The notes under the pieces were generated by a model, which saw nothing but the letters and a program-made list of their open reading frames with translations, ran no database searches and was not told the origin of the DNA. Positions 25,807 to 64,000 of a DNA stretch of 64,000 nucleotides are shown here, one piece after another (the stretch's first letter is position 1; each line of letters opens with the position of its first letter). This DNA comes from an uncultured Nitrospirota bacterium (lineage in GTDB: Bacteria > Nitrospirota > Nitrospiria > JACRHA01): the NCBI GenBank assembly GCA_964481895.1, contig CAYZUL010000005.1:942-64941 (forward strand), read 5' to 3'. Position numbers and translations under genes: made by a program.

Positions 25807-25809
25807 ACA

Positions 25810-26358: not shown

Positions 26359-26505
26359 AACTCTCCATTCTTAATATTTTAGCATACATGTGAATATCCT
26401 TTAAGACCTTATTAATTCTAGGAAAACTGCCTTAAAAAAATTATATTTCAAGATCATGCAGGGAGTCAAAGATAATTTTTAAGGATGGTTGGATAGGATG
26501 TTATA

Positions 26506-28342: not shown

Positions 28343-28441
28343 GTCAGCCTGAACTCTATCAGGAACGGTTTTGGGTTGTCAATAAAAGGAGCTGCTTGAT
28401 CTCCTTGACTATATCTACCTAAGATCATAAGATATATTAAA

Positions 28442-29608
28442 ATGGAGTCGAGGCCAGATCCTATGGATTTTGAACTCACCGAGGAACAAAAACTATTACA
28501 GAAGACAATAAGGGATTTTGCAGGGGACAAGGTAGCACTTGACGCTAGGGAGAGGGATGAGAAATCGATATTCCCCTCTGATATAATTAGGGAGCTTGCA
28601 GGTCTTGGTATCATGGGGGCAATTATCCCGTCTGAATATGGCGGATCGGGACTTGACTACATTAGTTATGCAATCATCATCGAAGAGATTGCAAGGATAG
28701 ACGCATCGGTTGCGATCATAATATCCTCACATAATTCACTCTGCACAAACCATATATACACATTCGGAACAGAAGAACAACGCAAAAGATATGTCATCCC
28801 CCTGGCAAAGGGGGAGAAGCTTGGCTGCTGGGCGAATACCGAACCCGGGGCCGGGAGCGATGCCGGAGGTATAGAAACCACAGCAACATTAAAGAACGGT
28901 GAGTGGATCCTTAAGGGGACAAAGCTATTCGCGACACAAGGTTCTGTTGCCGATGTTATTGTAATCATGGCTGTAACAGACCCCTCGAAGGGGAGCAAGG
29001 GGATCTCGGCCTTTATAGCGGAAAAGGGGACTCCGGGTCTCCGTCCGGGAAAGAGGGAGGATAAGCTTGGTTTTAGATCGAGCGACACCTCGGAGCTGAT
29101 ATTGGATGATGTAAGGATACCGGACGGAAACCTTCTTGGAAAGGTAAATGAAGGGTTTAAAGATGTAGTAAAGATACTGGAGGGTGGGCGGATAGGGATA
29201 GGTTCTATGGCAGTCGGCATTGCCAGGGGAGCATTTGAAGAGGCGACAAGGTACGCAAAAAAGAGGATGCAGTTCGGAACAAGGATAGCCGAGTTCCAGG
29301 CTATTCAATGGATGCTATCCGATATGGCTACTGGCATTGACGCGGCAAGACTCCTTGTCTATCATGCCGCATTTTTGAAAGATCACGGTGAGAGATGCTC
29401 AAAGGAGGCATCTATGGCCAAGCTCTTTGCCTCTGAGGTGGCGATGAATGCGACAACAAAGGCGATCCAGATCTTTGGCGGCCATGGATATATCAAGGAC
29501 TACCCTGTTGAAAGATACTTCAGGGATGCAAAACTCTGTGAGATAGGGGAGGGGACGTCAGAAATACAAAGGTTGATCATAGCAAGAGAGACACTCGGAA
29601 GGGAATAA
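28442..29608 (+). CDS. Acyl-CoA dehydrogenase (short/branched-chain type)
   Basis: 388 aa; canonical ACAD N-terminus MDFELTEEQ..., the catalytic-base region near the C-terminus ([23 protein letters not shown]) and FAD-binding segments. Confidence 0.85.
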
Positions 29609-30547
29609 ATGGATCTTGTCGATATGGTCTTAAAAGGTAATACCCGTTCTGTATCAAGGCTGATTAGTCTTGTAGAGGATAATTCCCCAGATGCATACGC
29701 ACTACTTAAGATCCTCTATATGCATACAGGCATGGCATACAGGATAGGTATAACAGGTATGCCGGGAAGCGGAAAGTCTACCATAATAGACAGGATGATT
29801 GAGGGTTTCAGGGAAAGGGGTATCAGCGTCGGGGTAATAGCTGTCGACCCATCGAGTCACATCACATCGGGCAGTCTTCTCGGTGACAGGATAAGGATGC
29901 AGAGGCATGCAATAGACGAGGGAGTCTTTATAAGGAGCATGTCAACGAGGGGACATCTGGGCGGGATAGCAAGGGCAACAAGGGATGTGGTGAATATCCT
30001 GGATGCAGCGGGTAAAGAGACCATAATAGTTGAGACTGTAGGTGTTGGTCAGGACGAGGTGGATATCGCCTCAATCGTTTATACCACTGTGGTTATCCTG
30101 ACCCCTGATTTTGGAGATGAACTTCAGACACTAAAGGCAGGGTTATTTGAGATAGGGGATATATTTGTTATAAACAAGAACGACCTTGGCAGGGCGGATG
30201 AACTTGAGCAAGACATAAATGGGGCCCTTGATATTACAGGCCAAAGGGATGGATGGCGGCCTGTTATTGTTAAGTCCTCTGCCTTAAAAGATGAAGGGAT
30301 CAATGAGATAACAGCCGGGATAGAGAAGCATAAGGCCTATCTATACGAGTCTGACAGGATCTCCCGGAAGAAGGAGGAGATAAGCGAAGGGGAGATCAGG
30401 AATATTTTTGGGGATATTATCCGGGAGAGGGCATTCAAGAAGATCTATAAAAAGGAGATCTTTGGGGAATATCTTAAGATGGCGGCAAAAAGGGAGATCG
30501 ATCCCTACTCTGCCGCGGAAGATATGGTAAAAAAGGCCGGCTTTTAG
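29609..30547 (+). CDS. meaB: Methylmalonyl-CoA mutase-associated G-protein MeaB/ArgK
   Basis: 312 aa; P-loop [12 protein letters not shown] and the typical MeaB sequence; starts immediately after the ACAD stop. Confidence 0.85.
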
Positions 30548-30582
30548 GGGCTGTTTTAGGATACGCAGAAAAAGGAAGGAAT

Positions 30583-32127
30583 ATGTCGGATCAGAAAGAA
30601 AGATTAAAGAGGCTAAAGGAAGAGGCCCTGGATGGGGGAGGAAAAGAGAAGATCAGGCAGCAGCATGAAAAGGGAAAGCTTACTGCAAGGGAAAGGATCG
30701 GGCTGCTCCTTGATGAAGGCTCTTTCCAGGAACTTGACATGCTTAAGACCCACAGATCCCATGAGTTCGGGATGGCGAAAAAGATTATAGCCGGTGATGG
30801 TGTTGTAACCGGATATGGCACCATTAGCGGGACAAAGGTCTGTATATATTCTCAGGATTTTACCGTCTTTGGCGGGGCATTAGGTGAGGCCCACGCAGAA
30901 AAGATTTGCAAGGTAATGGACCTTGCCATGAAGACAGGGGTGCCAATAATAGGCCTCAACGACTCCGGAGGCGCAAGGATACAGGAGGGAGTCATAAGCC
31001 TTGGGGGTTATGCCGAGATTTTTTTAAGAAACACTATGGCCTCAGGGGTTATACCTCAGATCTCTGCTGTTATGGGTCCATGCGCAGGCGGGGCAGTATA
31101 CTCACCTGCCCTTACAGACTTTGTCATTATGGTGGATCATACAAGCCATATGTTCCTGACAGGGCCTGCAGTAGTAAAGGCAATGACAGGAGAGGATGTC
31201 AGTTTCGATAAGCTTGGGGGGGCAGAGGTCCATGGGATGAAATCCGGGGTAGCCCATCTTATTGCAAAAAATGAGAAGGAGGCATTCTACTATATCAGGC
31301 GGCTTTTGAGCTTTATCCCGTCGAATAATACGGAGCAGCCCCATGAAGGGGATTGCAGGGATGACCCCGGCAGGACTGAACTTGCCCTTGACCGGATCAT
31401 CCCGGAAGATCCGAAAAAACCATATGACATGAAGGAGGTTATCAGGCTCATTGCTGATGACGGGGATTTCTTTGAGATACATCCCGGTTTTGCCGGGAAT
31501 ATCATTGTGGGATTTGCAAGGTTAAAGGGGATGAGTGTCGGCATCGTTGCAAACCAACCTCTCTCCCTTGCCGGGAGCCTCGATATTGGTGCATCTGTCA
31601 AGGGCGCAAGGTTTGTAAGATTCTGCGATGCCTTTAATATCCCAATCATCACCTTCGTAGATGTACCCGGTTTTCTTCCCGGGACTGCCCAGGAGCACAA
31701 GGGGATAATCCTGCATGGCGCAAAGCTCCTTTATGCCTTCTGCGAGGCAACAGTGGCAAAGATTACAGTGATTACACGCAAGGCATATGGAGGCGCATAT
31801 GATGTGATGAGCAGCAAACATATAAGGACAGATATAAATTATGCCTGGCCTACAGCAGAGATAGCAGTCATGGGATCTGAGGGTGCGGCCGAGATCATAT
31901 TCAAAAAAGAGATCGAGGCGTCGGAAGACCCAAAGAAGACCCTGACAGAGAAGGTTAGTGATTACCGGGAAAAATTCGCCAATCCCTATATTGCCGCAAA
32001 GATGGGATATATAGACGAGATAATCGAGGCCTCGAATACAAGGCCGAAACTGATATCAGCACTTGAGCTCCTGAAGAATAAGCGAGATTCAAACCCTCCA
32101 AAAAAGCACGGGAATATGCCCCTTTAA
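30583..32127 (+). CDS. pccB: Acyl-CoA carboxylase carboxyltransferase subunit (propionyl-CoA carboxylase beta / methylmalonyl-CoA carboxyltransferase)
   Basis: 514 aa; PccB/MmdA-family sequence throughout ([12 protein letters not shown]..., GGARIQEG, two carboxyltransferase halves). Confidence 0.85.
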
Positions 32128-32136
32128 TTGGAGATA

Positions 32137-32200
32137 TTCGAGGCTGTTGAGCCGGAAAAAAGATAAATCGGAAAGAGAGGAGGAACTAAGGTAAGATCCG
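32137..32200 (+). repeat. 64-nt conserved leader element, copy A (upstream of uspA-A); copy B is at 54452..54515
   Basis: ttcgaggctgTtgagccggaaaaaagataaatcggaaagagaggaGgaactaAggtaaGatccg matches 54452-54515 at 60/64 positions. Both copies are intergenic and lie 5' of stress genes (uspA here, ftsH there). Confidence 0.6.
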
Positions 32201-51031: not shown

Positions 51032-51445
51032 ATGAATAGAAGTGATTTAAAACTACTATCACTCATCAGGCTTAGAGAAGCACGGGTACTATTAAAAAAT
51101 AAAAATTATGAAGGAGCTTATTATCTTTGCGGCTATGTTATTGAATGTGGGCTGAAGGCTTGTATTGCAAAGAAAACTAAGAGATATGATTTTCCAGACA
51201 AAAAAGCTGTCAATGATAGTTACTGTCATAATCTTGCAACACTTGTTAATACAGCCGGTCTTAGCATAGAATTAGATAAAGAAAAGAAAAGCTATTCAAT
51301 ATTTGAAAGTAATTGGAGTACCGTTAAAGACTGGTCACAAGTGAGTCGTTATGAAAAACATACTGAGAAAGAAGCGCAAGATCTTTTTTATGCAATCACA
51401 GATAAAAGACATGGAGTTTTGAAATGGTTAAAGCGGCATTGGTAG
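51032..51445 (+). CDS. HEPN domain protein
   Basis: 137 aa; helical HEPN pattern (REARVLLKNKNYEGAYYLCGYVIECGLKACIAKK...SRYEKH); lies in an AT-rich islet. Confidence 0.55.
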   Translation: MNRSDLKLLSLIRLREARVLLKNKNYEGAYYLCGYVIECGLKACIAKKTKRYDFPDKKAVNDSYCHNLATLVNTAGLSIELDKEKKSYSIFESNWSTVKDWSQVSRYEKHTEKEAQDLFYAITDKRHGVLKWLKRHW

Positions 51446-51490
51446 AATAAGATATACAAGAGCCAGTTCAAGTTCAGGAGGCAGTTCAAA

Positions 51491-51880
51491 ATGTTTGTTA
51501 AAGCTGCATTGGTAAAAGAAGATTTACACGATGGCAAGAGATTAATTGAAGCGTTGGATAAAGCAAACTTTAAAGTCCAAGCCGCGCTATGGTTCTACTT
51601 GGCTGATTCTGATGAATGGCGGCTTTATATTTCTTCCCCATTTGTAGAAAAAGAAGGGCCTAGAAAATCTTATAATTTTATTCAAAAAATCTTGGCAAGG
51701 CTTGCGCCACCTTCTAGTTTCTCTTTAACAGACATTACAGTTCTAAGTCCTTCTAGCAATTTGGTTAAACTAATGAGAGTAGCGGTCCGGACTGGGCCTG
51801 GCATATCGGGCATCCGATTTACTCGAAATGTTATAAATAATACTTTGATAGAGGATGCATATATTTATCGTATTGTGTGA
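51491..51880 (+). CDS. Hypothetical protein, partner of the HEPN gene (no recognisable motif)
   Basis: 129 aa, same strand, 45 nt downstream of the HEPN gene. It lacks the GS..DxD nucleotidyltransferase motif expected of an MNT partner. Confidence 0.4.
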   Translation: MFVKAALVKEDLHDGKRLIEALDKANFKVQAALWFYLADSDEWRLYISSPFVEKEGPRKSYNFIQKILARLAPPSSFSLTDITVLSPSSNLVKLMRVAVRTGPGISGIRFTRNVINNTLIEDAYIYRIV

Positions 51881-52227
51881 ACCATTTTAATGCTACTTTT
51901 CACAACACACGTTTAATGATTGGTCTTGCGTGATCCTTTTATTTAGTGTAAAAATCTTGTCCTGTTATAGTCACCTCACATCTGTCTCTTAAGATATTCT
52001 ATGGCATCCTCTCTCGTAGTCAATATACCTAAGATCTGTTTTTCCCTTAAGTCGGCAAGGGGTAAAGGGAGGGGGTAAAGGGGACGGTTCTCGTTAATTT
52101 ACAAAAGTGACGGGAGAGGATAGATTTTAAGCATGCCTAGCATAAGTAGGGACTATAATTTATAGGGACAGCGACCATTTAAGAAGAATTTCTGCTCACA
52201 ACGGTAGATAGCAGAATCTTAACAACC

Positions 52228-52533
52228 TCATGCAATATCATCTAAATTTCGTGACCCATGAACAACTCGGTGAATTTCGATAATTTTACTGCGGACTATG
52301 TAAAATACAAGGTAGGATTCAATCACGAGGATGCGATAGCCTGAATTTTTAAGCTTGTCATCTTTCGGTACCCGGCCAAGAAACGGGTGGGATTTAAGGC
52401 TGCCAATGTGATGATTGAGTTTATCAATAAAAATTGCGGCATTGGCCGGACTGACATTTCCAATCCAGTCTAAGATCGAGACAAGATCGTCAACGGCAAC
52501 AGGAAGGTAACGAAGGGTGTATCTATTAGCCAT
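52228..52533 (-). CDS. parE: ParE/RelE-family type II toxin
   Basis: 101 aa; ParE-like pattern (...YRILVIESYLVFYIVRSKIIEIHRVVHGSRNL); 8-nt overlap with the upstream antitoxin gene. Confidence 0.7.
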   Translation of the reverse strand: MANRYTLRYLPVAVDDLVSILDWIGNVSPANAAIFIDKLNHHIGSLKSHPFLGRVPKDDKLKNSGYRILVIESYLVFYIVRSKIIEIHRVVHGSRNLDDIA

Positions 52534-52792
52534 GCAAGTGTTGCATGAGTTTTTTCATCACTTGCGAATGGGTAAGCCCTTTTTCTCCGCTGGCGGCCTG
52601 GGCCTGAGCAACAGCGAGTTTTTCGAAAAGCTCGACCCTTGCCTTTAGCCTTTCATAGTGTTCGATGCTCATTACAACAAGGTCGCCCTCGCCATTAGTT
52701 GTCAGATAAACAGGTTCATCCTGTTCATGGCACAATGAGGCAATATCTCTTGTTTTATTACGAAGACTTGAGATAGGTTTTATTATCGGCAT
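52526..52792 (-). CDS. phd: Phd/YefM-family type II antitoxin
   Basis: 88 aa; Phd/YefM N-terminal fold pattern (IIKPISSLRNKTRDIASLCHEQDEPVYLTTNGEGDLVVMSIEHYERL). Confidence 0.7.
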   Translation of the reverse strand: MPIIKPISSLRNKTRDIASLCHEQDEPVYLTTNGEGDLVVMSIEHYERLKARVELFEKLAVAQAQAASGEKGLTHSQVMKKLMQHLHG

Positions 52793-54428: not shown

Positions 54429-54451
54429 CGGTTAATGCACGCGTAATGATG

Positions 54452-54515
54452 TTCGAGGCTGCTGAGCCGGAAAAAAGATAAATCGGAAAGAGAGGATGAA
54501 CTATGGTAAAATCCG
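54452..54515 (+). repeat. 64-nt conserved leader element, copy B (upstream of ftsH-B)
   Basis: 60/64 identical to 32137-32200. Confidence 0.6.
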
Positions 54516-54554
54516 CTCAAGAGATCCGGCTGGGAAAGAGGGCAGAATAGAAAG

Positions 54555-56435
54555 ATGGAAAAGAAACAGAAGGAGTTTTCGCTCTGGTACTTCGTAATCG
54601 CCTTCCTGATCCTGATAGCCATTGAGAATTTTCTGTTGTCCTCCCACCTTGAAAACCTCTCTTATAGCGATTTTAAGGTACTATTAAAGGCAGGAAAGGT
54701 GGAGGATCTAACCATTAGAGAAAAGGTTATATCGGGAAAGCTGAAGAAGGAGGAGCTAGAGGGGCTCCTCCCTAAAGAGAAGGTAGAGGAACTTCAAAGA
54801 CTCGGTAAAGGGGAGTATCACTTTATTTCGGTCCGGGTGGATGACCCTTCGTTAATACAGGAGTTGGAGGCAGCGAAGGTGCGCTTTGCCGGTCAGGTGG
54901 AGAGCACCTGGTTCGGGAGCCTCATGTCGTGGGTTTTGCCCGCAGTAATCTTCTTTGCCCTCTGGATCTTTTTTATGAAACGGATGGGTGCGGCAAGCGG
55001 TATTATGGAAATTGGCAAGAGTAAGGCCAAGGTATATATGGAAAAGCAGACAGGGGTGTCCTTTGATGATGTTGCTGGGGTGGATGAGGCGAGAGCTGAG
55101 TTGATGGAGGTGGTGGAATTCCTGAAGAACCCTCAGCGCTATCGACGCCTGGGCGGGAAGATCCCGAAAGGGGTCCTCCTGGTAGGTGCACCTGGGACAG
55201 GGAAGACCCTCATGGCCAAGGCAGTGGCCGGAGAAGCGGGGGTTCCCTTCTTTAGCATAAGCGGGTCGGAATTTGTAGAGATGTTCGTAGGCGTTGGTGC
55301 GGCGCGGGTACGGGACCTTTTCGCCCAGGCCGAAGGAAAGGCCCCTTGCATCATATTTATTGATGAGCTTGATGCCCTAGGCAAGGTGCGCGGATTTAAT
55401 CCAGTTGGCGGGCATGATGAGCGGGAGCAGACATTAAACCAGCTATTGGTAGAGATGGATGGGTTTGATACAAACAAGGGGGTCATCATAATGGCTGCAA
55501 CCAACAGGCCGGAGATCCTGGACCCGGCCCTGCTCCGGCCCGGGCGATTTGACCGGCACGTTGCCCTTGACAGGCCGGATCTAAAAGGAAGGGAAAAGAT
55601 CCTCCATGTCCATAGTAAAGCCGTTAAGCTATCGCCAAAAGTCGATCTCTCTGTCATTGCCGCCAGGACCCCGGGGTTTGTAGGGGCGGATCTTGCCAAC
55701 CTTGTCAATGAGGCCGCATTGTTAGCTGCCCGCAAAGGTAAGGATGCAGTAGAGATGGTTGATTTCGATGACGCGATAGACCGGATCATTGCAGGACTAG
55801 AGAAAAAGACGCGGGTGATGAATCCGAAGGAGAAGGAGACCGTTGCCTATCACGAGGCTGGTCATGCCATAATTGCCGAATCCCGTCCGCACGTAGACCG
55901 GGTTTCAAAGATCTCCATCATTCCCCGTGGTGTTGCCGCATTGGGGTATACACAGCAGCTTCCCACGGAGGACAGATATCTTCTTAAGAGGACAGAACTG
56001 CTTGATCGGCTCGATGTGCTTCTTGGAGGCAGGGTGGCCGAGGAGATTGTTTTCGGTGATGTCTCTACCGGGGGCCAGAATGACCTCCAGCGGGCCACAG
56101 ACTCGGCGCGCCATATGGTAACACAGTATGGGATGAGCGAGCGCCTTGGCTTGGCCACATTTGAAGAGCCGCGCACCTCTCCCTTTTTAAATATCCCTAT
56201 GCCCCAGGGCCAGAGGGAATACAGTGAAAGGACAGCCCAGGCTATCGATGAAGAGATCCAAAAGCTCTTAAAGGAATCCCACGCCCGTGTCAAGGAGACA
56301 TTGATCTCAAAACGCTCCATACTGGAATCCCTGGCAAAGCTCCTCCTTGAAAAGGAGGTGATTGACCGTGCGACGCTTGACCATCTGCTGGAGACACAGA
56401 GGAATGCTGTCGTGATAACAAAAAAAGGAGTCTAA
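54555..56435 (+). CDS. ftsH: ATP-dependent zinc metalloprotease FtsH, paralog B
   Basis: 626 aa; same motifs as paralog A; the central 1,219 bp are identical to paralog A, while the N- and C-terminal regions are diverged. Confidence 0.9.
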
Positions 56436-56453
56436 GGAGAGGAAGGAGATAAG

Positions 56454-56906
56454 ATGAAGGAACAAAAAAGAAAGTTTTTGCCGATCAAGAAGATCCTTGT
56501 GCCGACTGATTTTACAGTCTATTCAGATCATGCAATTGAATATGCAATTATGGTTGCCAGGAAATTCGAGGCAAAAATCCTGCTTATCCATGTAATCGAA
56601 CCGTTTGCTTATAGCGTAACTGATACAGTCCAAATAATTGATCATTATACGGCATTAAAGACAGTGGCACGGCCTATCCTGGACAACCTGCAAAAGAGGT
56701 TGTTAAAAAAAGGCATTAAGGTAGACTGTACCCTTCTCGATGGGAATCCCTATCTTGAGATAGTCGAGAAATCCCGTCAGGCAGGTGCGGATCTGATTAT
56801 CATGGGGACCCATGGCCGTACGGGCATCGATCATATCCTTATGGGGAGTGTGGCTGAGCGGGTTGTACGCCTGGCGCCATGCCCTGTATTAACAGTAAGG
56901 GGCTGA
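56454..56906 (+). CDS. uspA: Universal stress protein (UspA family), paralog B
   Basis: 150 aa; about 80% identical to the uspA at 32262. Confidence 0.8.
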   Translation: MKEQKRKFLPIKKILVPTDFTVYSDHAIEYAIMVARKFEAKILLIHVIEPFAYSVTDTVQIIDHYTALKTVARPILDNLQKRLLKKGIKVDCTLLDGNPYLEIVEKSRQAGADLIIMGTHGRTGIDHILMGSVAERVVRLAPCPVLTVRG

Positions 56907-56987
56907 TGCCCCCAATGTCTGCGGAACATCGCAGGTATTTTGTATTGCATTTTCTAATAAATTACAAACTCATACTGCAAGGGAGGA

Positions 56988-57326
56988 GTGATAAGCATGA
57001 AGAGATCAATCATGTTTTGTTTTATGGGAATAGTCCTTATTGGCATGGCAGAATGCACGTTAGTGCTTGCCGCAGGACCTGAGACTGAAAAGGGAAAGAT
57101 GTTATACGAAGGGAAAAAATGTGGTCTTTGCCATGCCATTAATGGAAAGGGCGGCAAGAAAGGTACTGATCTATCTGATACTGGTAACAAAAGGGACGCG
57201 GGATGGCTGATGAAGTACTTGAAAGATCCAAAAGGGACCTTGCCTGGCGCTAAGATGATGCCTGTTAAGGCCTCTCCGGAAGAACTATCGGCGCTTATTG
57301 ATTACATGTTATCGCTTAAGAAATAG
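56988..57326 (+). CDS. Periplasmic monoheme cytochrome c (class I)
   Basis: 112 aa; signal peptide, CGLCH heme-binding motif, distal Met candidates (KMMPVK). Confidence 0.75.
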   Translation: MISMKRSIMFCFMGIVLIGMAECTLVLAAGPETEKGKMLYEGKKCGLCHAINGKGGKKGTDLSDTGNKRDAGWLMKYLKDPKGTLPGAKMMPVKASPEELSALIDYMLSLKK

Positions 57327-57375
57327 GAGAGACTTACCGATTTATATAAAAGACACTATAGAGCGGAGGTTACAA

Positions 57376-58596
57376 ATGGACGTACGATTTCTTTCCAAGG
57401 GTTTATTATGGTTTTATGTGTTCATTTTTATTTCCATATTTTTTGAGGCCTTATATCCCGCCAAGGCCCATGCCATTCCGGCCTTTACCAGAAAATATAA
57501 TGCAGACTGCTCTATGTGCCACTATCCAAATCCACCCAGACTTAATTCCTTTGGACAGGAATTTCGCCGGGCAGGCTTCAGGACACCGGATGAATTCAAT
57601 AAAGATCAGGACATTTCCAAGGTCGGGGACTTCTTGTCTGTTCGTGGCAGGGCCCGCTATGAATATGTAAACCCTGAAGGAAAGCCCGTCGAGAGCCAGT
57701 TTAAATGGAATGACACTACATTCTTTTATGCAGGGGCCTTGACCAAAAATCTAACCTCTTTTACTGAATTAGAAGTTGCGCCAGAAGGAAAGGAAACTGA
57801 GGTGGAGTTGGTGGCCTCCATCGGAGGGGTCTTCGGACAGCCGGATCATTACTCTACTTTCAGAGTGGGACAGTTCCATGCTTTGACACGGGTAGGTTTT
57901 GGGGGGTTCGATCGGCCAACAGGGATCAGCACGGCCTCTGCCCTCTCTTCAGATCTCACCACAGGAGGTGTCCCTTTTAAGATCAACACAGACCAGAGGG
58001 GACTGGAATTAACCCATGTCTTCAAAAAATCCAGGATGATCGCCCAGATCCTAAATGGAATAGATGAGGGGGGGAAGGGGACGGTGGATGACACCAATAC
58101 TGCCAAGGATTATTCCATTGCCTATGAAAGGATCTTAGATGACCTGGCATCAGGCTTTACCATCTATGGTTACTGGGGTAGCTGGTTTAATAACGATGAC
58201 CCAGCACTAGGCCAGAGGGCCGGGTTTGCACGGTATGCATTAACGGGAAACAAGATCTTCCCTGGTATCCTCGCCGGAAATTTTGAGGTAATGGCAGGTT
58301 ATGTGCGAAGCCAGGATGCTGCGCCTTCTTCACTCGGCGGGAATGTCCAGGGCAATGCCTTCTTTGTGGAAATCGAGGATTATTTTGAGCCTCATAATTT
58401 TACTCTCCTTGTCAGATACGATTTCATTGATCCCGAAGATGATACCGGAAATGACAGGAAGGAGAAATGGACTATAGGTTATGTCCGGACATTTCAAAGT
58501 TACTTGAGGCTGGCAGTGGAGGCAAATACATCACGAGACGACAAAAAAGATACAACTGATTACGGCGTAACAGGGGAGCTTATGATTAACTTTTGA
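57376..58596 (+). CDS. Cyc2-like fused monoheme cytochrome c / outer-membrane porin
   Basis: Start set at the ATG at 57376, which has a GGAGG RBS at 6-nt spacing; the track start at 57298 overlaps the upstream gene. Signal peptide ...PAKAHA, then a CxxCH (ADCSMCH) about 15 aa into the mature protein. The remaining ~370 aa show an amphipathic beta-strand pattern and end ...GELMINF. Confidence 0.6.
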   Translation: MDVRFLSKGLLWFYVFIFISIFFEALYPAKAHAIPAFTRKYNADCSMCHYPNPPRLNSFGQEFRRAGFRTPDEFNKDQDISKVGDFLSVRGRARYEYVNPEGKPVESQFKWNDTTFFYAGALTKNLTSFTELEVAPEGKETEVELVASIGGVFGQPDHYSTFRVGQFHALTRVGFGGFDRPTGISTASALSSDLTTGGVPFKINTDQRGLELTHVFKKSRMIAQILNGIDEGGKGTVDDTNTAKDYSIAYERILDDLASGFTIYGYWGSWFNNDDPALGQRAGFARYALTGNKIFPGILAGNFEVMAGYVRSQDAAPSSLGGNVQGNAFFVEIEDYFEPHNFTLLVRYDFIDPEDDTGNDRKEKWTIGYVRTFQSYLRLAVEANTSRDDKKDTTDYGVTGELMINF

Positions 58597-58639
58597 CAGA
58601 AGTTAGCGTTCGTCCACTTATGAAAGTTCGGAGGGAGGC

Positions 58640-59359
58640 ATGAACTTAAGGACTCAGGGTCTGCCCGTTAAGATCCTCTTTACCTGTTTTCTCGGCACCA
58701 TCGGGATCGCTTATCTCTCTGCCATTACCTATCTCTTTTTAATAGATATTGAGCCGCATGCCAAAGGTAATTTGGGTATAGTCCACGCCGTGATTATCAA
58801 GTATTATGGTCAAAGGGGGACTACCCGGCTGGAAGCAGCCCTGGATGGGGGCATGGGTGAAAATATCACCCCTGCCCAGAAAAAACAGATCTCTGAATGG
58901 ATCCGTAAAGGGGCGCTTCCATCAGGTTTTGAATCGATAAAACCAATCTTTCTTAATAACTGCACTGTTTGCCACAGCAAGGAGTCGGGCATGCCCATTT
59001 CTCCACTTACCAGCTTTGATGAGGTGGCCGCCTATACCCAGATTGATATAGGCCAATCAGTAAAAAGCCTGGTGCGCGTATCACATATACATCTCTTCGG
59101 GATGAGCTTTCTCTTCTTGCTTACAAGCTGGATCTTTGTACTGAGTGAAATTGCCGTCAAATGGCGCGCCATCCTGGTATCGGTCCCTTTTGCAGCCATC
59201 TGGATAGATATAGGATCATGGTGGTTTACAAAATTTGAGCCCCTTTTTGCCTATTCAGTAATCGCCGGAGGTGCCTTGATGGGTCTCTCTCTGGCAGCGC
59301 AGATCATAATTTCACTCTGGGAGATGTGGCTTAAGGAAGGGAAAATAATAGAGGTCTAG
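58640..59359 (+). CDS. Four-TM membrane protein with a c-type heme-binding loop (CTVCH)
   Basis: 239 aa; TM1 then a soluble loop containing NNCTVCHSKESGMP, then three further TM helices. No family recognised. Confidence 0.5.
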   Translation: MNLRTQGLPVKILFTCFLGTIGIAYLSAITYLFLIDIEPHAKGNLGIVHAVIIKYYGQRGTTRLEAALDGGMGENITPAQKKQISEWIRKGALPSGFESIKPIFLNNCTVCHSKESGMPISPLTSFDEVAAYTQIDIGQSVKSLVRVSHIHLFGMSFLFLLTSWIFVLSEIAVKWRAILVSVPFAAIWIDIGSWWFTKFEPLFAYSVIAGGALMGLSLAAQIIISLWEMWLKEGKIIEV

Positions 59360-59394
59360 CCGGCTAAAAACATCGGTCTCGTGGGATTGGATTT

Positions 59395-59889
59395 TTATTT
59401 ATGAATATGCTCCTCTGCTTTTCCCCCATGGGAGAAGGTATGGGTATAGGCGATCACCTTCCAGATCTGATCTTCTTTGAGTTTCCCCTTCCATGGCGTC
59501 ATCGGGGTTTGCGGCACTCCTTCTGCGGTCCGCCAATACATATAACTATCTGTCATCTTACTTACATATTCTGCATCCCTGAGATCACGCGTACCAGTCA
59601 GAAGAGGCCTTCCATCACGTCCATGGCATGCAGCACATACCACATCCGGATCTACCATCCCATCATAGATCTTTTTCCCTTCAGTGATCACCTTGGGATC
59701 TGTCCACCATCCTTTCGGCATATGTTTGTCCTCGTATTCCTTAGGAATCTTGTCCAATGCCGGCATCTTGGGCTTCTCGCCGAACGCCACCATCATTGTA
59801 AAAAAGACAATCAGAAAAGATATTCCGATCATACATAGGTTTCGCATCTGTCGCCCCCTTTTATAAAAAGCCCATTTTAAAGACCTCAT
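59395..59889 (-). CDS. Membrane-anchored monoheme cytochrome c
   Basis: 164 aa; N-terminal signal anchor and a CAACH heme motif. The alternative start at 59847 has a better RBS (GGGGG). Confidence 0.7.
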   Translation of the reverse strand: MRSLKWAFYKRGRQMRNLCMIGISFLIVFFTMMVAFGEKPKMPALDKIPKEYEDKHMPKGWWTDPKVITEGKKIYDGMVDPDVVCAACHGRDGRPLLTGTRDLRDAEYVSKMTDSYMYWRTAEGVPQTPMTPWKGKLKEDQIWKVIAYTHTFSHGGKAEEHIHK

Positions 59890-59914
59890 TTTTTCTCTTA
59901 TTTTCTAAAATTCT

Positions 59915-60709
59915 TTAGTTTCCCTCTTTTTTGGGTGGAAAGATAGGTTTTGGCGAATTTCCTGCCGGATCTTTAAGGGACATGAGATATGCTACTAGTG
60001 CGTCCCGCTCCACTTCGCTCATAAGTCTAGGATAATTTTCCGGCATCACCACCTTCTTGTACTCATTTTCAAACCCTTCGGCATACCATGCCATGGGGTC
60101 CCAGAGTTTATCTTTTAATTGCCCGGCCATAAGCAGATTGCCGATATTGTCCAGCGCAGGCCCCCGGCGCTTCACTCCCCCTTTTCCGCCAACCTTGTGG
60201 CAATTATAACACTCATAGTCTTTGTACACCTGTTTTCCAAAGGCGATCTGTTTTGCAACGTTTTCTGCTAGAGCAGGCCCGCCGGGGGGAATCTTTTTGG
60301 TCGCTCGGGTCATACCTTCCTTTTCCAATTCTGCAAGGAGTTCTTTCTTGGCGGCCTCGACTGCTTCGGTTATGGCCGTTTTTTCCTTCTCTTTCTCCTG
60401 CTCGATAGTCATATGCTGGATCCGCCGGATTTTTTCTATCTCGATCCCTGGATCATACTGTGGGAGCAACATACCTGCAAGGGTTATTATGAACGATGCG
60501 GCGAGAAAGAAGGTGGCGATTGCAAGAATAGGGCTTTTCGGCAGGCGCATGGCCTTAGCATCAAGGAGCAAAAAGAATGAAAACCCCAACAGCACATAAC
60601 CTACGAAGAAGATCCTGAAGATAACAGGGAAACCAACCCAACTGCTGCCCGACCATACTACTGTACTCAAAATCAGGGTCCAGACGAGTTTGTATCTCAA
60701 CCTCTTCAT
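59915..60709 (-). CDS. Membrane-anchored (3 TM) monoheme cytochrome c
   Basis: 264 aa; three N-terminal TM helices, a coiled-coil linker (EQEKEKEKTAITEAVEAAKKELLAELEKE) and a C-terminal cytochrome-c domain with CYNCH. Confidence 0.7.
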   Translation of the reverse strand: MKRLRYKLVWTLILSTVVWSGSSWVGFPVIFRIFFVGYVLLGFSFFLLLDAKAMRLPKSPILAIATFFLAASFIITLAGMLLPQYDPGIEIEKIRRIQHMTIEQEKEKEKTAITEAVEAAKKELLAELEKEGMTRATKKIPPGGPALAENVAKQIAFGKQVYKDYECYNCHKVGGKGGVKRRGPALDNIGNLLMAGQLKDKLWDPMAWYAEGFENEYKKVVMPENYPRLMSEVERDALVAYLMSLKDPAGNSPKPIFPPKKEGN

Positions 60710-60720
60710 AAGAGTATCCT

Positions 60721-62280
60721 TTACGAATCGCCGCCTTCAATTCGCACCTTTAATGCTTTTGTCCTTCCAAGACCCAGACTGATCCAGATGCAGAATCCGA
60801 TCATCAGGAAGAATAAAAGGGAGATCAAAGTCACCAAGAGGCTGGACCATGCAAGGGTTGGTGTGTAAGCATCCGGGGTCATATCCTTCATGAGGATATA
60901 GATATGGAAATGCTTTCTTCCCAGGGAGCGGACAGCTCCCATAAGGCCCATAGTCCAGATTGCGGCAAAGGCAAGGAAGATCAAGGCATACTGCGATGCC
61001 GGGTCAATTTTACCCCATTGGATGGTCCCCCGTCTGATGGAAACTCTATACAATATATAACTCATCAAGACCACTGCAATGCTCAATCCAGCAGCTATAT
61101 TTTTGATCGGCATCAGCGCCATAAAACCTAGATGAGAGGGGAGTTCCATCTGTGTTACGTACTTGTCGGGATCTGCACCTTCCGGAAGGGCTCCTGGATC
61201 CAATATCATGGTGGCAAAGAAATGCCTTGGTGTCATCCAGATGGCATTGCAGATCAGGATCAGCACAAACCCGGCCCTGATAAGGGGTGCAAAGCGTTCC
61301 GCACCGGTGATCCTTTTCATAGAGAGCCAGATATAGTAGTTGCCGGCAAGATACATAAGACCGATTAGAATCCCCTGCATCTCATAGAACATTGAAAGCC
61401 TGTCGGACATCATATAGATCCCCAGGGAGGCATCATATTGATAAATTTCATAGCCATAGAGATAGCCTGGAAAAGCCAGAAGCATGAAGGTAACAAGACC
61501 GATCAGGTTGCCTATAAATCCCATCCAATCATAGAAGATCCGATCTTCATCGGTCTTAGATGTCATGTACATTACGGCAGCGATTAGACAGACAATGAAT
61601 CCACCGAAGGCCACATTGGATATAAAGCGGTGGATGTTAAGCGGCCACCAGGTAAAATTGTTCATCAACTCCCACAGTGTGGCCTTTTCATAATCTTTTA
61701 CCGGTGTATTCATAAAGCTGGTGACGGCATTCATGAGGAACATTACGGCTGTCCCAGTGATATTCAGTAATACCCCGATGGCAATATGAAAACCTTTACG
61801 GTATTTAAGCACATCCCAACTGTATAAATATGTGTACATCAATAGTGACTCTACTATGAATAAAATTGGATAGAAGATAATCCAGAGGGGGAAAAAGTAG
61901 GTCATGAGAAATGTGGAAAGCTTCGGATAAAGGGCAATTAGCAGCAGCGTAAAGAGCCCTCCGGTCAGGGCGGTAAGGCTGTAAGCCACAGCGGTGACCC
62001 TCGTAACCTCCCTGGCCAGGCGCTCATATCGATGATCCTTTTTCTTATAACCGATATATTCGCATATTACCACAAAGATGGGGGCACCTAAGATGAAGGC
62101 AGCAAAATTGAGCATTAGTTGGGCAGCAATCCAGATCACGGTTCGATTACTCACGTAGGGAAGGGTAACCTCTTTGTATTGAATTACCTCTTCTGCTCCA
62201 TAAACAACCGTAGTGGTTGCGGCCAGTGAAATCACTGCCAGTAAAATGGCCGGTTTGCGCAGAGATATCAACGATGCCAT
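60721..62280 (-). CDS. Cytochrome bd-like oxidase subunit (CydA homolog, no Q-loop, no adjacent cydB)
   Basis: 519 aa with about 14 TM helices; collinear with CydA helices. The conserved Glu region reads FPILFIVESLLMYTY, and NITGTAVMFLMNAVTSFMNTP corresponds to N..SALWILVANGWMQNP. The canonical heme His ligands are not all conserved. Confidence 0.65.
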   Translation of the reverse strand: MASLISLRKPAILLAVISLAATTTVVYGAEEVIQYKEVTLPYVSNRTVIWIAAQLMLNFAAFILGAPIFVVICEYIGYKKKDHRYERLAREVTRVTAVAYSLTALTGGLFTLLLIALYPKLSTFLMTYFFPLWIIFYPILFIVESLLMYTYLYSWDVLKYRKGFHIAIGVLLNITGTAVMFLMNAVTSFMNTPVKDYEKATLWELMNNFTWWPLNIHRFISNVAFGGFIVCLIAAVMYMTSKTDEDRIFYDWMGFIGNLIGLVTFMLLAFPGYLYGYEIYQYDASLGIYMMSDRLSMFYEMQGILIGLMYLAGNYYIWLSMKRITGAERFAPLIRAGFVLILICNAIWMTPRHFFATMILDPGALPEGADPDKYVTQMELPSHLGFMALMPIKNIAAGLSIAVVLMSYILYRVSIRRGTIQWGKIDPASQYALIFLAFAAIWTMGLMGAVRSLGRKHFHIYILMKDMTPDAYTPTLAWSSLLVTLISLLFFLMIGFCIWISLGLGRTKALKVRIEGGDS

Positions 62281-62302: not shown

Positions 62303-62863
62303 TTAGAAGAGGGGATGAAATGCTACGCCGAATTGGCCAGGTTCAATAGACTCTGTATCATGTCCGAAGATCTTCCATTCCCCCTCTTCATGGATCAGAT
62401 AATGAACCTCATCGACCCAACCATCAATCCGCTCCTTCTTTCCGGTGCGTGTATTTATGCCGAATACTAAACCGGTACACACAATATATGCCATACGTTT
62501 GGACCGATCAATATGGATCCGATTGAAGGTATGGCCTATAAGTAGTTCCTTATAATCCTGGAAAAGCCTGGTCCAGACCTTTCTTATTTCATTCCGGTCT
62601 GCCCCTAGGTGGGCATAGTTCTTTGAATATGAATTCATCAGCCCATTGAGATTCTTTGATTGGATAGCTTTGTCCGACTTCTCAAAGGTTGACATAAGTT
62701 CCTTAACCTCTTCCGGGAGGGCATGTATCTCGGCATTCTTACCTATGACTGTTTCGGCCATCAGAGGCCCAATAGACCAGAGAATTAGAAATAAAATAAA
62801 AAGTATAATAAAGAATGACCTGCCGGTCGTAAGGCAGGAATTAGGTTTAACATCTAATGTCAT
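62303..62863 (-). CDS. Membrane-anchored hypothetical protein (NTF2/SnoaL-like fold suspected)
   Basis: 186 aa; N-terminal TM anchor; co-directional with and 23 nt upstream of the bd-like oxidase gene. Confidence 0.4.
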   Translation of the reverse strand: MTLDVKPNSCLTTGRSFFIILFILFLILWSIGPLMAETVIGKNAEIHALPEEVKELMSTFEKSDKAIQSKNLNGLMNSYSKNYAHLGADRNEIRKVWTRLFQDYKELLIGHTFNRIHIDRSKRMAYIVCTGLVFGINTRTGKKERIDGWVDEVHYLIHEEGEWKIFGHDTESIEPGQFGVAFHPLF

Positions 62864-62903: not shown

Positions 62904-63104
62904 TTATTTAAACGTCTTAATATAAGCGATCAGATCTTCCATGTCCGTCTTTTTAAGAACACCTACATTCAATCTCGAAGTGCAACATATGCAACCTCGA
63001 GGGGCGTTTTGTAGTCCTGGCATTGACGCCTCCTTACTTACTTTTAATATTATCCCATGAATTAGATTAATACAACCTGGAGCAAGATCTCCACATCTTT
63101 TCAT
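62904..63104 (-). CDS. Hypothetical small Cys-containing protein (uncertain)
   Basis: 66 aa ORF with four Cys (CINL...CICC); no family recognised and coding status uncertain. Confidence 0.2.
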   Translation of the reverse strand: MKRCGDLAPGCINLIHGIILKVSKEASMPGLQNAPRGCICCTSRLNVGVLKKTDMEDLIAYIKTFK

Positions 63105-63367
63105 TAATTTAACAGGTTAAGATTAGTTACCCTAAAGGTCTTTTTACCTGAGATCCTGGCAGCAAAATATCCCACCTGACAGACTCAAAAATATCTTCAA
63201 TATTTCAAAGGATTAGCATCTGTGAAGACCCCTTCTTTGTGGCAGGTCTATATATCTGGTGCTATACTTTCTTTGGGAACTAGTAGCGACTCCCTGATAC
63301 ATTTATTAATTATTTTAGGGAAAGTTTTGTAGATGGCCATAAATAACATAAATAATAGGAGGTTCAA

Positions 63368-64000
63368 ATGAACGTTAAAGTAATTGGAGTTTTGTTATTA
63401 GCATTGATGTTTTTAGTCAGTCCTGTAATCTATGCCCAGATGATGGGTGATGGGATGATGAAGGGTGGCCAGATGGCGGCCGAAGGGGAAGAAGAGGGTC
63501 AGATGCCCCAGATGCCGATGATGCATGGGATGATAAATCGGGTGATGGAGATGATGCAGGAGATGATGGAGGGCATGAGAGGTATGGCCCAGGATGAACC
63601 GACAAAGGAAAAGATGGATGGGATGATGATGGAGATGGACGAGATGATTAAACAGCATGAGGCGATGATGGAAGGGATGATGTCTGGTTCAATGATGGGA
63701 CGCTCTGATGAGATGAAGCCTGTCGAAAAGATGAAAGGGACTATGTCTTCTGCGACACAGAAAAATAGCGGCGGCGGGGTGACAGTAGAAGCGACCCTGC
63801 TAAATCCAAAGGATATTGATGAGAGGGTCACCTTCAGTCTTAAGTTCGATACGCACAGTGTAAACCTCGATGAATATGACCTGGCAAACATCTCACACCT
63901 TAGGGATGACCTTGGAAGGGAACTGCATGGGCCTGTCCTTGAAAAAGCTGAAGGAAGCGGACATCATCGGAGCGCGATAATATCCTTCTCAAATAAGAAT
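63368..64000 (+). CDS. Met-rich periplasmic protein, putative Cu/Ag-binding (paralog B), partial at window end
   Basis: ATG at 63368 with an AGGAGG RBS; the translation MNVKVIGVLLLALMFLVSPVIYAQMMGDGMMKGGQ...MPMMHGMINRVMEMMQEMMEGMRGMAQD...GGGVTVEATLLNPK... parallels the 42350 ORF. It is absent from the ORF track because it runs off the window. Confidence 0.7.
   Translation, partial: MNVKVIGVLLLALMFLVSPVIYAQMMGDGMMKGGQMAAEGEEEGQMPQMPMMHGMINRVMEMMQEMMEGMRGMAQDEPTKEKMDGMMMEMDEMIKQHEAMMEGMMSGSMMGRSDEMKPVEKMKGTMSSATQKNSGGGVTVEATLLNPKDIDERVTFSLKFDTHSVNLDEYDLANISHLRDDLGRELHGPVLEKAEGSGHHRSAIISFSNKN

What the first reader, a model, noticed from the sequence alone, without database searches (positions are those of the whole stretch)
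57376..58596. Cyc2-like fused cytochrome-porin (candidate outer-membrane Fe(II) oxidase)
The 406-aa protein has a signal peptide and a single CxxCH heme motif about 15 residues after the predicted cleavage site (FTRKYNADCSMCHYPNPPRLNSFGQEF). The rest has an amphipathic beta-strand periodicity and ends in ...MINF, the classic outer-membrane-protein terminal aromatic. This is the architecture of Cyc2, the outer-membrane iron oxidase of acidophilic and neutrophilic Fe(II) oxidisers. A periplasmic monoheme cytochrome c gene lies immediately upstream. A membrane c-cytochrome gene lies downstream.
Basis: partly seen in the sequence, partly recalled or inferred. Interest (0 to 1): 0.8.

Follow-up and report, generated by a model that had tools for sequence, protein, structure and literature searches.

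The report
Cyc2-type outer-membrane cytochrome-porin gene
This gene from an uncultured groundwater Nitrospirota bacterium encodes a real member of the known Cyc2 family, a one-heme cytochrome fused to an outer-membrane pore that iron-oxidising bacteria use to take electrons from dissolved metal; the family is already known in this phylum, and whether this copy acts on iron or manganese is unresolved.

Summary

The protein meets the published Cyc2 criteria (Keffer 2021). Its motif is AIPAFTRKY, 8 of 9 consensus positions, and its nearest relatives have all 9. PRL lies 4 residues after CxxCH. The family profile aligns to the A. ferrooxidans Cyc2 clade at 98.6% probability, E 7e-16, but only over the N-terminal third.

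Homologues occur in Nitrospira and Manganitrophaceae, whose copies the literature places in Cyc2 Cluster 3. That cluster's substrate, Fe(II) or Mn(II), is unsettled.

The gene sits in a three-gene module: monoheme cytochrome c, Cyc2, and an uncharacterised 4-TM CxxCH membrane protein (Pfam PF27139). The module recurs in the closest relatives. A bd-like oxidase cluster lies next to it, but that adjacency is not conserved more widely.

In a sister genome this Cyc2 copy is deleted, and a paralogous cassette appears to lie on the other side of the oxidase cluster.

Verdict: a new member of a known kind, of moderate interest.

The parts
56914..56939 (+). Terminator-like hairpin just after the Usp stop codon; a possible boundary before the cyt c-Cyc2-PF27139 unit
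   Evidence: This is a consensus match only, and the number of such sites does not exceed that in shuffled sequence.
56988..57326 (+). Periplasmic monoheme class-I cytochrome c (CGLCH). The likely true start is ATG 56997, giving 109 aa.
   Evidence: PF00034 E 8.7e-10. One CxxCH. Homologues are 108-110 aa. A homologue lies next to the Cyc2 gene, on the same strand, in 42-43 of 80 genome loci.
57365..57369 (+). Shine-Dalgarno GGAGG, 6 nt upstream of the Cyc2 ATG
57376..58596 (+). Cyc2-family fused cytochrome-porin, 406 aa
57376..57474 (+). Signal peptide (residues 1-33, AHA|IP)
   Evidence: Hydropathy and cleavage-site pattern. The model shows a helix at residues 3-25.
57472..57498 (+). Cyc2-specific motif A-I-P-A-F-T-R-K-Y (consensus AXPXFAR[Q/K][T/Y]), 3 residues before CxxCH
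   Evidence: The spacing is the same as in A. ferrooxidans Cyc2.
57508..57522 (+). Heme c attachment site C45-S-M-C-H49
   Evidence: Invariant in 61 of 61 homologues
57535..57543 (+). P54-R-L56 (PXL motif, 4 residues after CxxCH)
   Evidence: Invariant; criterion taken
57634..58593 (+). 16-stranded beta-barrel (residues 87-406) ending in ...MINF
57880..57990 (+). Long loop between strands 5 and 6 (residues 169-205) carrying the most conserved non-heme segment (H168, RVGFGGFDRPTGIS). Its position corresponds to the L3 constriction loop of porins.
   Evidence: Any role in the heme pocket or metal binding is inference.
58640..59359 (+). Inner-membrane protein of Pfam family PF27139 (Aq_1264_TM): 4 TM helices, a periplasmic CTVCH, and invariant H149/H151 in TM2
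   Evidence: No solved relative. Found directly downstream of Cyc2 in the closest relatives.
59395..59889 (-). Monoheme cytochrome c with an N-terminal hydrophobic segment
59915..60709 (-). Membrane-anchored (2 TM) monoheme cytochrome c
60721..62280 (-). Cytochrome bd-like oxidase subunit I homologue (519 aa, about 11 TM helices). Only the N-terminal part resembles CydA.
   Evidence: PF01654 E 6e-20 over residues 51-282. 5doq_A E 7e-11 over residues 49-194.
62303..62863 (-). 186-aa secreted or anchored protein of unknown function, first gene of the minus-strand cluster
   Evidence: 88% identical homologue, plus a paralogue, next to the sister genome's Cyc2 cassette.

Best explanation
The gene encodes a genuine Cyc2-family protein. 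A Sec signal peptide is followed by a roughly 50-residue monoheme c-type cytochrome region, which is fused to a 16-stranded OprP-like outer-membrane barrel.

By analogy with characterised Cyc2 proteins, it is the outer-membrane entry point of an electron-uptake chain. A dissolved reduced metal ion is oxidised at the heme held in or at the barrel; Fe2+ is the most likely substrate. The electron then passes to the co-encoded periplasmic monoheme cytochrome c, and from there to inner-membrane acceptors. The best candidates for those acceptors are the co-encoded PF27139 CxxCH membrane protein and the membrane-anchored c-cytochromes of the adjacent bd-like terminal oxidase cluster.

Shown here: the architecture, the motifs, the fold, homology to A. 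ferrooxidans Cyc2 in the N-terminal third, and conservation of the gene module. Inferred: heme attachment, outer-membrane location, direction of electron flow, substrate, and the identity of the inner-membrane acceptor.
For: - Sequence features: a single invariant CxxCH, the Cyc2-specific motif, the PRL motif, a signal peptide and a C-terminal aromatic residue.
- Homology: hhalign of the family profile against A. ferrooxidans Cyc2 gives 96.7% (E 3e-10), and against its clade profile 98.6% (E 6.8e-16).
- Relatives: full-length homologues at 45-48% identity occur in Manganitrophaceae and Nitrospira MAGs. The Cyc2 copies of those groups are placed in Cluster 3 by phylogeny and FeGenie.
- Activity precedents: a Nitrospirota Cluster-3-type Cyc2 oxidised Fe(II) when expressed in E. 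coli, and the A. ferrooxidans, Leptospirillum and PV-1 proteins have Fe(II)-oxidising activity.
- Redox partner: a small cytochrome c is adjacent on the same strand in 42-43 of 80 loci across several phyla.
- Module: cyt c-Cyc2-PF27139 recurs in the closest relatives.
- Operon signals: the intergenic gaps are 49 and 43 nt with no terminator-like site between the three genes.
- Terminal oxidase candidate: a bd-like oxidase cluster with two c-cytochromes converges on the module.
Against: - No experiment exists for this protein or its immediate clade.
- The function of Cluster 3 is called 'most uncertain' by the family's own curators. Nitrite-oxidising Nitrospira, which are not known to oxidise iron, carry homologues.
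- Sequence homology to characterised Cyc2 could be shown only for the N-terminal third. A barrel-only profile comparison gave 3.5% probability.
- The bd-like oxidase is not adjacent in any of 80 related genome loci, and none is seen on the contigs of the two closest intact homologues, only one of which extends far past the module. That linkage may therefore be incidental.
- A sister genome has deleted this exact copy, so it is dispensable at least when a paralogue is present.
- The rest of the window contains no lithotrophy or carbon-fixation markers.
Confidence: 0.6

Rival explanations
1. The architecture and electron path are the same, but the physiological substrate is Mn(II), or Mn(II)/Mn(III), rather than Fe(II). 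This is the role hypothesised for the Cyc2 homologue of Ca. Manganitrophus noduliformans.
For: Yu et al. list Cyc2 among the core candidate Mn-oxidation genes of Ca. Manganitrophaceae. In a rough neighbour-joining tree, the window protein's group lies nearer to a clade containing a marine Manganitrophaceae MAG than to the Nitrospira clades. PF27139 partner proteins at 68-69% identity are annotated from Manganitrophaceae MAGs. bd-like terminal oxidases are the proposed oxygen reductases in that family.
Against: No Cyc2 has been shown biochemically to oxidise Mn(II). The Manganitrophaceae-specific candidates PCC_1 and TO_2 (MrpD-like subunits) are not present in the window. The Mn(II)/Mn(III) couple is much more oxidising than the heme potential measured for one Cyc2 (208 mV for PV-1). 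The tree has no support values.
Confidence: 0.18
2. It is a Cyc2-family protein that does not serve lithotrophic energy conservation. Possible roles are Fe(II) detoxification, redox sensing, or a general outer-membrane electron conduit that may run outward, so its presence says little about the organism's energy metabolism.
For: Cyc2 homologues are widespread in organisms not known to oxidise iron. This profile finds 3,205 representatives in many phyla. Neighbouring genes are stress- or metal-related: Usp, FtsH, a Cu P-type ATPase, an HtrA-like protease and a Met-rich secreted protein. In L084 an LTXXQ/metal-resistance protein follows the module. The copy is deleted in a sister genome.
Against: The tight, conserved pairing with a periplasmic cytochrome c and a membrane heme protein looks like a dedicated electron-transfer chain. 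The sister genome appears to retain a paralogous cassette rather than losing the function altogether.
Confidence: 0.2
3. It is an ordinary general or anion-selective porin whose N-terminal CxxCH is fortuitous and does not bind heme.
For: The barrel alone matches OprP, Omp32 and PorB strongly, and heme attachment has not been shown.
Against: CxxCH and the flanking 30 residues are the most conserved part of the protein across 61 homologues from several phyla. That region aligns specifically to the A. ferrooxidans Cyc2 heme domain. No Pfam porin family matches. The two cysteines are the only ones in the protein.
Confidence: 0.02

Closest known systems
Cyc2 of Acidithiobacillus ferrooxidans ATCC 23270 (UniProt B7JAQ7; Cyc2 Cluster 2; outer-membrane Fe(II) oxidase of the rus operon)
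   Same: Both have a signal peptide followed by the A-x-P-x-F-x-R-[QK]-[TY] motif, 3 residues, CxxCH and then P-x-L. Both share the 'FYAG' first-strand motif and a 16-stranded OprP/OprO-like barrel. The gene is adjacent to a periplasmic cytochrome c gene in both. Profile-profile probability is 98.6%.
   Different: Pairwise identity is detectable only over about 55 residues (31%), and there is no detectable sequence similarity in the barrel beyond the first strands. This protein is 406 aa against 483-485 aa. The partner is a monoheme cytochrome rather than the diheme Cyc1. There is no rusticyanin or aa3 oxidase operon; instead there is a PF27139 membrane protein and a bd-like oxidase. The host is presumably a neutrophilic groundwater organism, not an acidophile.
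Cluster 3 Cyc2 homologues of Nitrospirota: Leptospirillum Cyt572, Ca. Manganitrophus Cyc2, Nitrospira Cyc2, Ca. Mariimomonas ferrooxydans Cyc2
   Same: They come from the same phylum and have the same architecture. The window protein is 45-48% identical over its full length to homologues in Manganitrophaceae and Nitrospira MAGs. The literature places the Cyc2 copies of those groups in Cluster 3.
   Different: No reference sequences of these named proteins were available, so cluster placement was not tested directly. The window protein belongs to a distinct sub-clade of uncultured groundwater Nitrospiria. Cyt572 is reported to be a long-branch outlier with an unusual heme.
Cyc2 of Mariprofundus ferrooxydans PV-1 (Cluster 1; neutrophilic Fe(II) oxidase, Em 208 mV)
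   Same: It meets the same family definition (Keffer 2021), has a predicted 16-strand porin with a fused monoheme domain, and comes from a neutral-pH setting.
   Different: It belongs to a different cluster. Identities between clusters are typically 17-23%.
Phosphate- and anion-selective porins OprP and OprO of Pseudomonas aeruginosa (PDB 2o4v, 4rjw)
   Different: They have no heme domain, share only 11-13% identity, and act in transport rather than redox chemistry.
Porin-cytochrome complexes (MtoAB, PioAB, MtrCAB, PCC_1 of Ca. Manganitrophus)
   Same: They perform the same overall task of moving electrons across the outer membrane.
   Different: In these systems a separate deca- or dodecaheme cytochrome is threaded through a 26-strand porin. 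Here a single polypeptide carries one heme and 16 strands.

Membership tests
Cyc2 fused cytochrome-porin family (criteria of Keffer et al. 2021, PMC8406198) | N-terminal signal peptide | tested here: met
   Basic n-region, hydrophobic core at residues 9-24, AHA|IP site after residue 33. SignalP itself was not available.
Cyc2 fused cytochrome-porin family (criteria of Keffer et al. 2021, PMC8406198) | A single CXXCH heme c-binding motif near the N-terminus | tested here: met
   One motif, C45-H49, containing the only two Cys in the protein. All 61 aligned homologues have exactly one.
Cyc2 fused cytochrome-porin family (criteria of Keffer et al. 2021, PMC8406198) | Cyc2-specific consensus motif AXPXFAR[Q/K][T/Y] just upstream of CXXCH | tested here: met
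   AIPAFTRKY matches 8 of 9 consensus positions (T38 in place of A). The 3-residue spacing to CxxCH is the same as in A. ferrooxidans Cyc2 (ALPSFARQT-GWS-C). The nearest relatives read AIPAFARKY, a perfect match. Caveat: the literal PXFAR[Q/K][T/Y] filter that Keffer et al. used to build their tree would reject this sequence, and also most of its clade, which reads PAWARKY.
Cyc2 fused cytochrome-porin family (criteria of Keffer et al. 2021, PMC8406198) | PXL motif 4 residues downstream of CXXCH | tested here: met
   H49-Y-P-N-P-P54-R-L56. P54, R55 and L56 are invariant in 61 sequences.
Cyc2 fused cytochrome-porin family (criteria of Keffer et al. 2021, PMC8406198) | Length of at least 365 aa | tested here: met
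   406 aa
Cyc2 fused cytochrome-porin family (criteria of Keffer et al. 2021, PMC8406198) | 16-stranded outer-membrane porin domain structurally similar to OprO/OprP | tested here: met
Cyc2 fused cytochrome-porin family (criteria of Keffer et al. 2021, PMC8406198) | Detectable sequence homology to a biochemically characterised Cyc2 | tested here: met
   hhalign against A. ferrooxidans Cyc2: 96.7%, E 3.3e-10. Against its clade profile: 98.6%, E 6.8e-16 over 138 columns. The signal is confined to the signal peptide, heme domain and first strands; the barrel-only comparison gave 3.5%.
Cyc2 fused cytochrome-porin family (criteria of Keffer et al. 2021, PMC8406198) | Score above the calibrated cut-off of a FeGenie Cyc2 HMM | not testable with these tools
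   The FeGenie HMMs are not among the available libraries. Pfam and NCBIfam have no model that matches.
Cyc2 fused cytochrome-porin family (criteria of Keffer et al. 2021, PMC8406198) | Covalently bound heme, outer-membrane location and Fe(II)-oxidising activity | not testable with these tools
   This requires expression and biochemistry.
Cyc2 Cluster 3 (McAllister 2020 / Keffer 2021 phylogeny) | Placement inside Cluster 3 of the reference Cyc2 tree, or best score to the Cluster 3 HMM | not testable with these tools
   The reference alignment and tree are on figshare and are not held. Indirect support: 45-48% identity to homologues in Nitrospira and Manganitrophaceae MAGs, groups whose Cyc2 copies are reported as Cluster 3.
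Porin-cytochrome complexes (MtoAB/PioAB/PCC) | A separate multiheme (10-12 heme) cytochrome plus a porin of about 26 strands | tested here: not met
   One heme motif and 16 strands in a single polypeptide. No multiheme cytochrome gene lies nearby.
General / anion-selective 16-strand porins (OprP, Omp32, PorB) | Match to a porin sequence family, and no cofactor-binding domain | tested here: not met
   No Pfam porin family matched at E <= 0.1. The protein has a conserved N-terminal heme-binding region that these porins lack. Only the fold matches.

The most novel reading that the evidence does not exclude
The conserved three-gene unit (monoheme cytochrome c, Cyc2, and the PF27139 'Aq_1264_TM' protein) could be a self-contained conduit from the outer to the inner membrane that has not been described before. 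In this reading the uncharacterised PF27139 protein is the missing inner-membrane electron acceptor that links Cyc2 to the quinone pool or to the bd-like oxidase. It has 4 TM helices, a periplasmic CxxCH, an invariant His pair in TM2, and no solved or annotated relative. The conduit would support Fe(II) or Mn(II) lithotrophy in an uncultured groundwater Nitrospiria lineage related to Ca. Manganitrophaceae.
Probability: 0.25. Interest if true: 0.6.

Novelty: new member of a known kind. Interest (0 to 1): 0.35.

Why it matters
Cyc2 is the most widely used genetic marker for microbial iron oxidation, and its Cluster 3 branch is the one whose function is least certain. This locus adds a well-supported member from an uncultured groundwater Nitrospirota lineage.

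More usefully, it shows a compact, recurring gene module (cytochrome c, Cyc2, PF27139 membrane heme protein) that suggests a specific, testable route for the electrons after they cross the outer membrane. That step is poorly defined for neutrophilic Cyc2 systems.

Two near-identical genomes differ in whether this cassette is present. Comparing them offers a natural experiment for linking the gene to a phenotype or a niche.

The finding does not change what is known about the family, and it cannot by itself show that the organism oxidises iron or manganese.

Tried and rejected
- Pfam and NCBIfam scans of the target found no family. No curated model for Cyc2 exists in those libraries.
- A PDB sequence search gave only noise, with E > 1.
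- The AlphaFold-database fold search (afdb50) was not installed, so no match to predicted Cyc2 structures could be sought.
- Reference Cyc2 sequences were looked for in the supplements of Keffer 2021, McAllister 2020, Yu 2022 and the 2026 Antarctic Cyc2 paper and its preprint, and none were held as text. The Yu & Leadbetter Nature paper is not held. Only the A. ferrooxidans sequence was recovered, from Jiang et al.. It is machine-read from a PDF, and its best database match is 94% identical.
- Source names of distant profile hits were uninformative.
- The barrel-only profile comparison with the A. ferrooxidans clade showed no homology signal. Common ancestry of the barrels therefore rests on fold and architecture only.
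- I first considered that the adjacent bd-like oxidase was a conserved functional partner. It is absent from all 80 related genome loci, and none is seen on the contigs of the two closest intact homologues. The linkage is retained only as a lineage-specific possibility, supported by the sister genome.
- Fold search of the PF27139 protein against the PDB gave no hit below E = 1, and its sequence search found nothing.
- The promoter and terminator scans gave nothing above chance.
- The first 53 kb was surveyed for lithotrophy markers. Only housekeeping, signalling and stress or metal-resistance genes were found.
Full report
**Observation**

Window 57376-58596 (+) is an intact ORF of 406 codons. 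A longer TTG-initiated reading frame from 57298 is also open. The ATG at 57376 is preceded by GGAGG with a 6-nt spacer, which supports it as the start.

The product begins with a basic stretch, a hydrophobic core (residues about 9-24) and an AHA|IP cleavage-type site after residue 33. Its only two cysteines form a single CxxCH (C45-S-M-C-H49), 12 residues into the predicted mature protein. It ends in ...GELMINF.

The heme motif is not a chance occurrence. In an alignment of 61 homologues at 37-79% identity, every sequence has exactly one CxxCH, and C45, C48, H49, P54, R55 and L56 are invariant. The 40 residues around the motif are the best-conserved part of the protein.

**Fold**

AlphaFold2 with this alignment gives a confident model (mean pLDDT 91.1, pTM 0.85). 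It shows short helices at residues 36-86 followed by exactly 16 beta-strands from 87 to 405, with a long loop (169-205) between strands 5 and 6.

**Family membership**

Pfam and NCBIfam have no matching model. I therefore used the explicit criteria of Keffer et al. 2021: a signal peptide, one CXXCH, the Cyc2-specific AXPXFAR[Q/K][T/Y] motif upstream, PXL four residues downstream, at least 365 aa, and a 16-strand porin.

All of these are met. The one deviation is a T for A at motif position 6 (AIPAFTRKY). The nearest relatives read AIPAFARKY, and most of the wider clade reads AIPAWARKY.

For a direct test I recovered the A. ferrooxidans ATCC 23270 Cyc2 sequence from the supplement of Jiang et al.. 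The results were as follows.

- BLASTP aligns only the heme region (31% over 55 residues, E 2e-6).
- hhalign of the family profile against that single sequence gives 96.7% probability, E 3.3e-10.
- hhalign against a 33-sequence profile of the Acidithiobacillus/Acidiferrobacter clade gives 98.6%, E 6.8e-16 over 138 columns. Those columns cover the signal peptide, the heme domain and the first strands, including a shared FYAG strand.
- A barrel-only comparison gave no signal (3.5%).

The negative barrel result is consistent with the reported poor conservation of the Cyc2 porin. It also means that common ancestry of the barrels rests on fold only.

The FeGenie HMMs and the reference tree were not available, so cluster assignment is indirect. 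The protein is 45-48% identical over its full length to homologues in Manganitrophaceae and Nitrospira MAGs. The Cyc2 copies of Ca. Manganitrophus and Nitrospira are reported to fall in Cluster 3 by phylogeny and FeGenie.

**Distribution**

The word-indexed search found about 200 homologues, all unnamed or annotated 'hypothetical'. An exhaustive profile search of 1.84 billion cluster representatives found 3,205 at E <= 1e-3 and 123 at E <= 1e-30.

In species-representative genomes the family occurs in Nitrospirota (Nitrospira, Manganitrophaceae and many unclassified MAGs), Gemmatimonadota, Omnitrophota, Acidobacteriota and others.

A rough neighbour-joining tree without support values groups the window protein with two metagenomic sequences, a 'Nitrospiria' MAG and the sister-genome paralogue. 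The next groups out are groundwater Nitrospirae and a clade containing a marine Manganitrophaceae MAG. The Nitrospira sequences form separate clades.

**Gene context**

The upstream gene is a monoheme class-I cytochrome c (PF00034). Homologue lengths of 108-110 aa suggest its true start is ATG 56997. A homologous small cytochrome c lies next to the Cyc2 gene, on the same strand, in 42-43 of the 80 genome loci. Among the 35 loci with at least 2.5 kb on both sides, 21 have one within 2.5 kb, and these span several phyla.

The downstream gene (58640-59359) encodes a protein with four predicted TM helices and a periplasmic CTVCH. It has invariant EPH, VSHxHLFGxSF and DIGSWWFTK motifs. It belongs to the recent Pfam family PF27139 (Aq_1264_TM), which is absent from the local Pfam copy. 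It has no sequence or structural relative in the PDB. It follows Cyc2 only in the closest Nitrospirota relatives: 7 of the 80 loci and both of the closest intact homologues, L083 and L084.

The conserved unit in this lineage is therefore cyt c - Cyc2 - PF27139. The gaps between the genes are 49 and 43 nt, and no terminator-like site lies between them. This is compatible with an operon but does not prove one.

A minus-strand cluster converges on this unit. It comprises a 186-aa protein, a cytochrome bd-like subunit I, a membrane-anchored cytochrome c and a second cytochrome c. The bd-like subunit resembles CydA only in its N-terminal helices. This adjacency was found in none of the 80 genome loci. 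No bd-like gene is seen on L083 or L084 either, although L083 ends about 0.6 kb after the module.

**Comparison with a sister genome**

Contig JACRHA010000180.1 of MAG GCA_016234185.1 (a groundwater 'Nitrospirae bacterium') is 91-96% identical at the DNA level to window 25049-32200 and 54448-61597.

At the Cyc2 locus it carries two deletions. One is 177 bp long and removes the signal peptide and CxxCH of the cytochrome c. The other is 1,162 bp long and leaves only the first 19 and last 40 nt of the Cyc2 ORF; the remnant reads MDVRFL-stop. An independent assembly, L082, shows the same junctions.

Another contig of the same MAG (L001) carries a 76%-identical cyt c - Cyc2 pair plus a p186-like paralogue. 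These lie next to the p186 homologue, at a position where the window has only about 59 bp.

If the two contigs belong to one genome, each genome keeps one intact cassette beside the same bd-like cluster, on opposite sides. That would argue for a lineage-specific functional link between Cyc2 and this oxidase. Binning of L001 is a caveat, because its shared segments are only 84-86% identical to the window.

**Mechanism**

The mechanism is inferred by analogy with characterised Cyc2 proteins. A dissolved reduced metal ion reaches the heme held in or at the barrel and is oxidised. The electron passes to the periplasmic monoheme cytochrome c. It then moves to inner-membrane acceptors, for which the PF27139 protein and the c-cytochromes of the bd-like oxidase are the local candidates.

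The most conserved non-heme segment is H168 followed by RVGFGGFDRPTGIS. It occupies the loop that corresponds to the pore-constricting L3 of porins.

Fe(II) is the favoured substrate, because every Cyc2 tested so far oxidises Fe(II), including a Cluster-3-type protein from Nitrospirota. Mn(II), as hypothesised for Ca. Manganitrophus, and a non-energetic role remain open. The family's curators regard Cluster 3 function as the most uncertain.

**Verdict**

The protein is a new member of a known family in a phylum where that family has already been reported, so the interest is moderate. The points worth following up are the recurrent PF27139 partner and the presence/absence polymorphism between sister genomes.

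Noticed in passing
window 57011-57187 and 57395-58556, compared with L081 9715/9716 and 9918/9919, and with L082: In a sister genome (MAG GCA_016234185.1, flanks 94-96% identical) the upstream cytochrome c and almost the whole Cyc2 ORF are deleted at this locus. A 6-codon stub remains (MDVRFL-stop). An independent assembly shows the same junctions.
   Followed up: yes
L001 1073-3412, corresponding to window about 63092-63149: The same MAG has a 76%-identical cyt c - Cyc2 cassette plus a p186-like paralogue next to the p186 homologue, on the opposite side of the bd-like oxidase cluster from the window's cassette. The window has no remnant there. This may be reciprocal retention of paralogous cassettes. 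Binning of this contig is uncertain, because its shared segments are only 84-86% identical to the window.
   Followed up: partly
window 32133-32200 and 54449-54516, bracketing 32201-54447: A direct repeat of about 66 bp flanks a 22.2-kb segment that is absent from the sister genome, which has one copy of the repeat. The segment carries second copies of Usp and FtsH (86% and 91% nt identity to the sister genome's copies), a YHS-domain Cu-type P-type ATPase, an HD-domain protein, a P-II protein, an HtrA-like protease, a LolA-like/MacB-type ABC system, toxin-antitoxin genes and a beta-CASP RNase. It looks like a stress or metal-resistance island, or a recombination-mediated indel.
   Followed up: partly
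window 58640-59359 (+): The PF27139 (Aq_1264_TM) protein has 4 TM helices, a periplasmic CxxCH and an invariant His pair (H149/H151) in TM2. It has 702 homologues, mostly in Nitrospirota, no functional annotation and no structural match in the PDB. It is a candidate membrane heme protein.
   Followed up: partly
window 60721-62280 (-): The 519-aa 'cytochrome bd-like' protein matches CydA only over its N-terminal helices (residues about 49-282), and no CydB-like gene lies next to it. It resembles the non-canonical bd-like terminal oxidases discussed for Nitrospira and Ca. Manganitrophus.
   Followed up: partly
window 63368-64000 (+), runs off the window end: This gene encodes a secreted protein with an extremely Met-rich region (about 30% Met over residues 25-130, with MxxM/MMxM patterns), followed by a beta-rich domain. 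It is reminiscent of periplasmic Cu(I)-binding proteins. The His-rich ORFs listed on the opposite strand are artefacts of this composition.
   Followed up: partly
window 51032-52792: This stretch holds small toxin-antitoxin-like gene pairs: a HEPN-domain protein at 51032-51445, and two overlapping minus-strand ORFs at 52228-52792 that look like a toxin-antitoxin pair. A nucleotidyltransferase/HepT-like pair lies at 20240-21153.
   Followed up: no
window 17109-20219 (+): An unusually large (1,036 aa) sigma-54 activator combines a cNMP-binding domain, a GAF domain, an AAA+ domain and a C-terminal 4Fe-4S (Fer4_5) membrane-type domain.
   Followed up: no
window 4103-4179 (+): tRNA-Lys (UUU) is the only RNA gene detected in the window.
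   Followed up: yes
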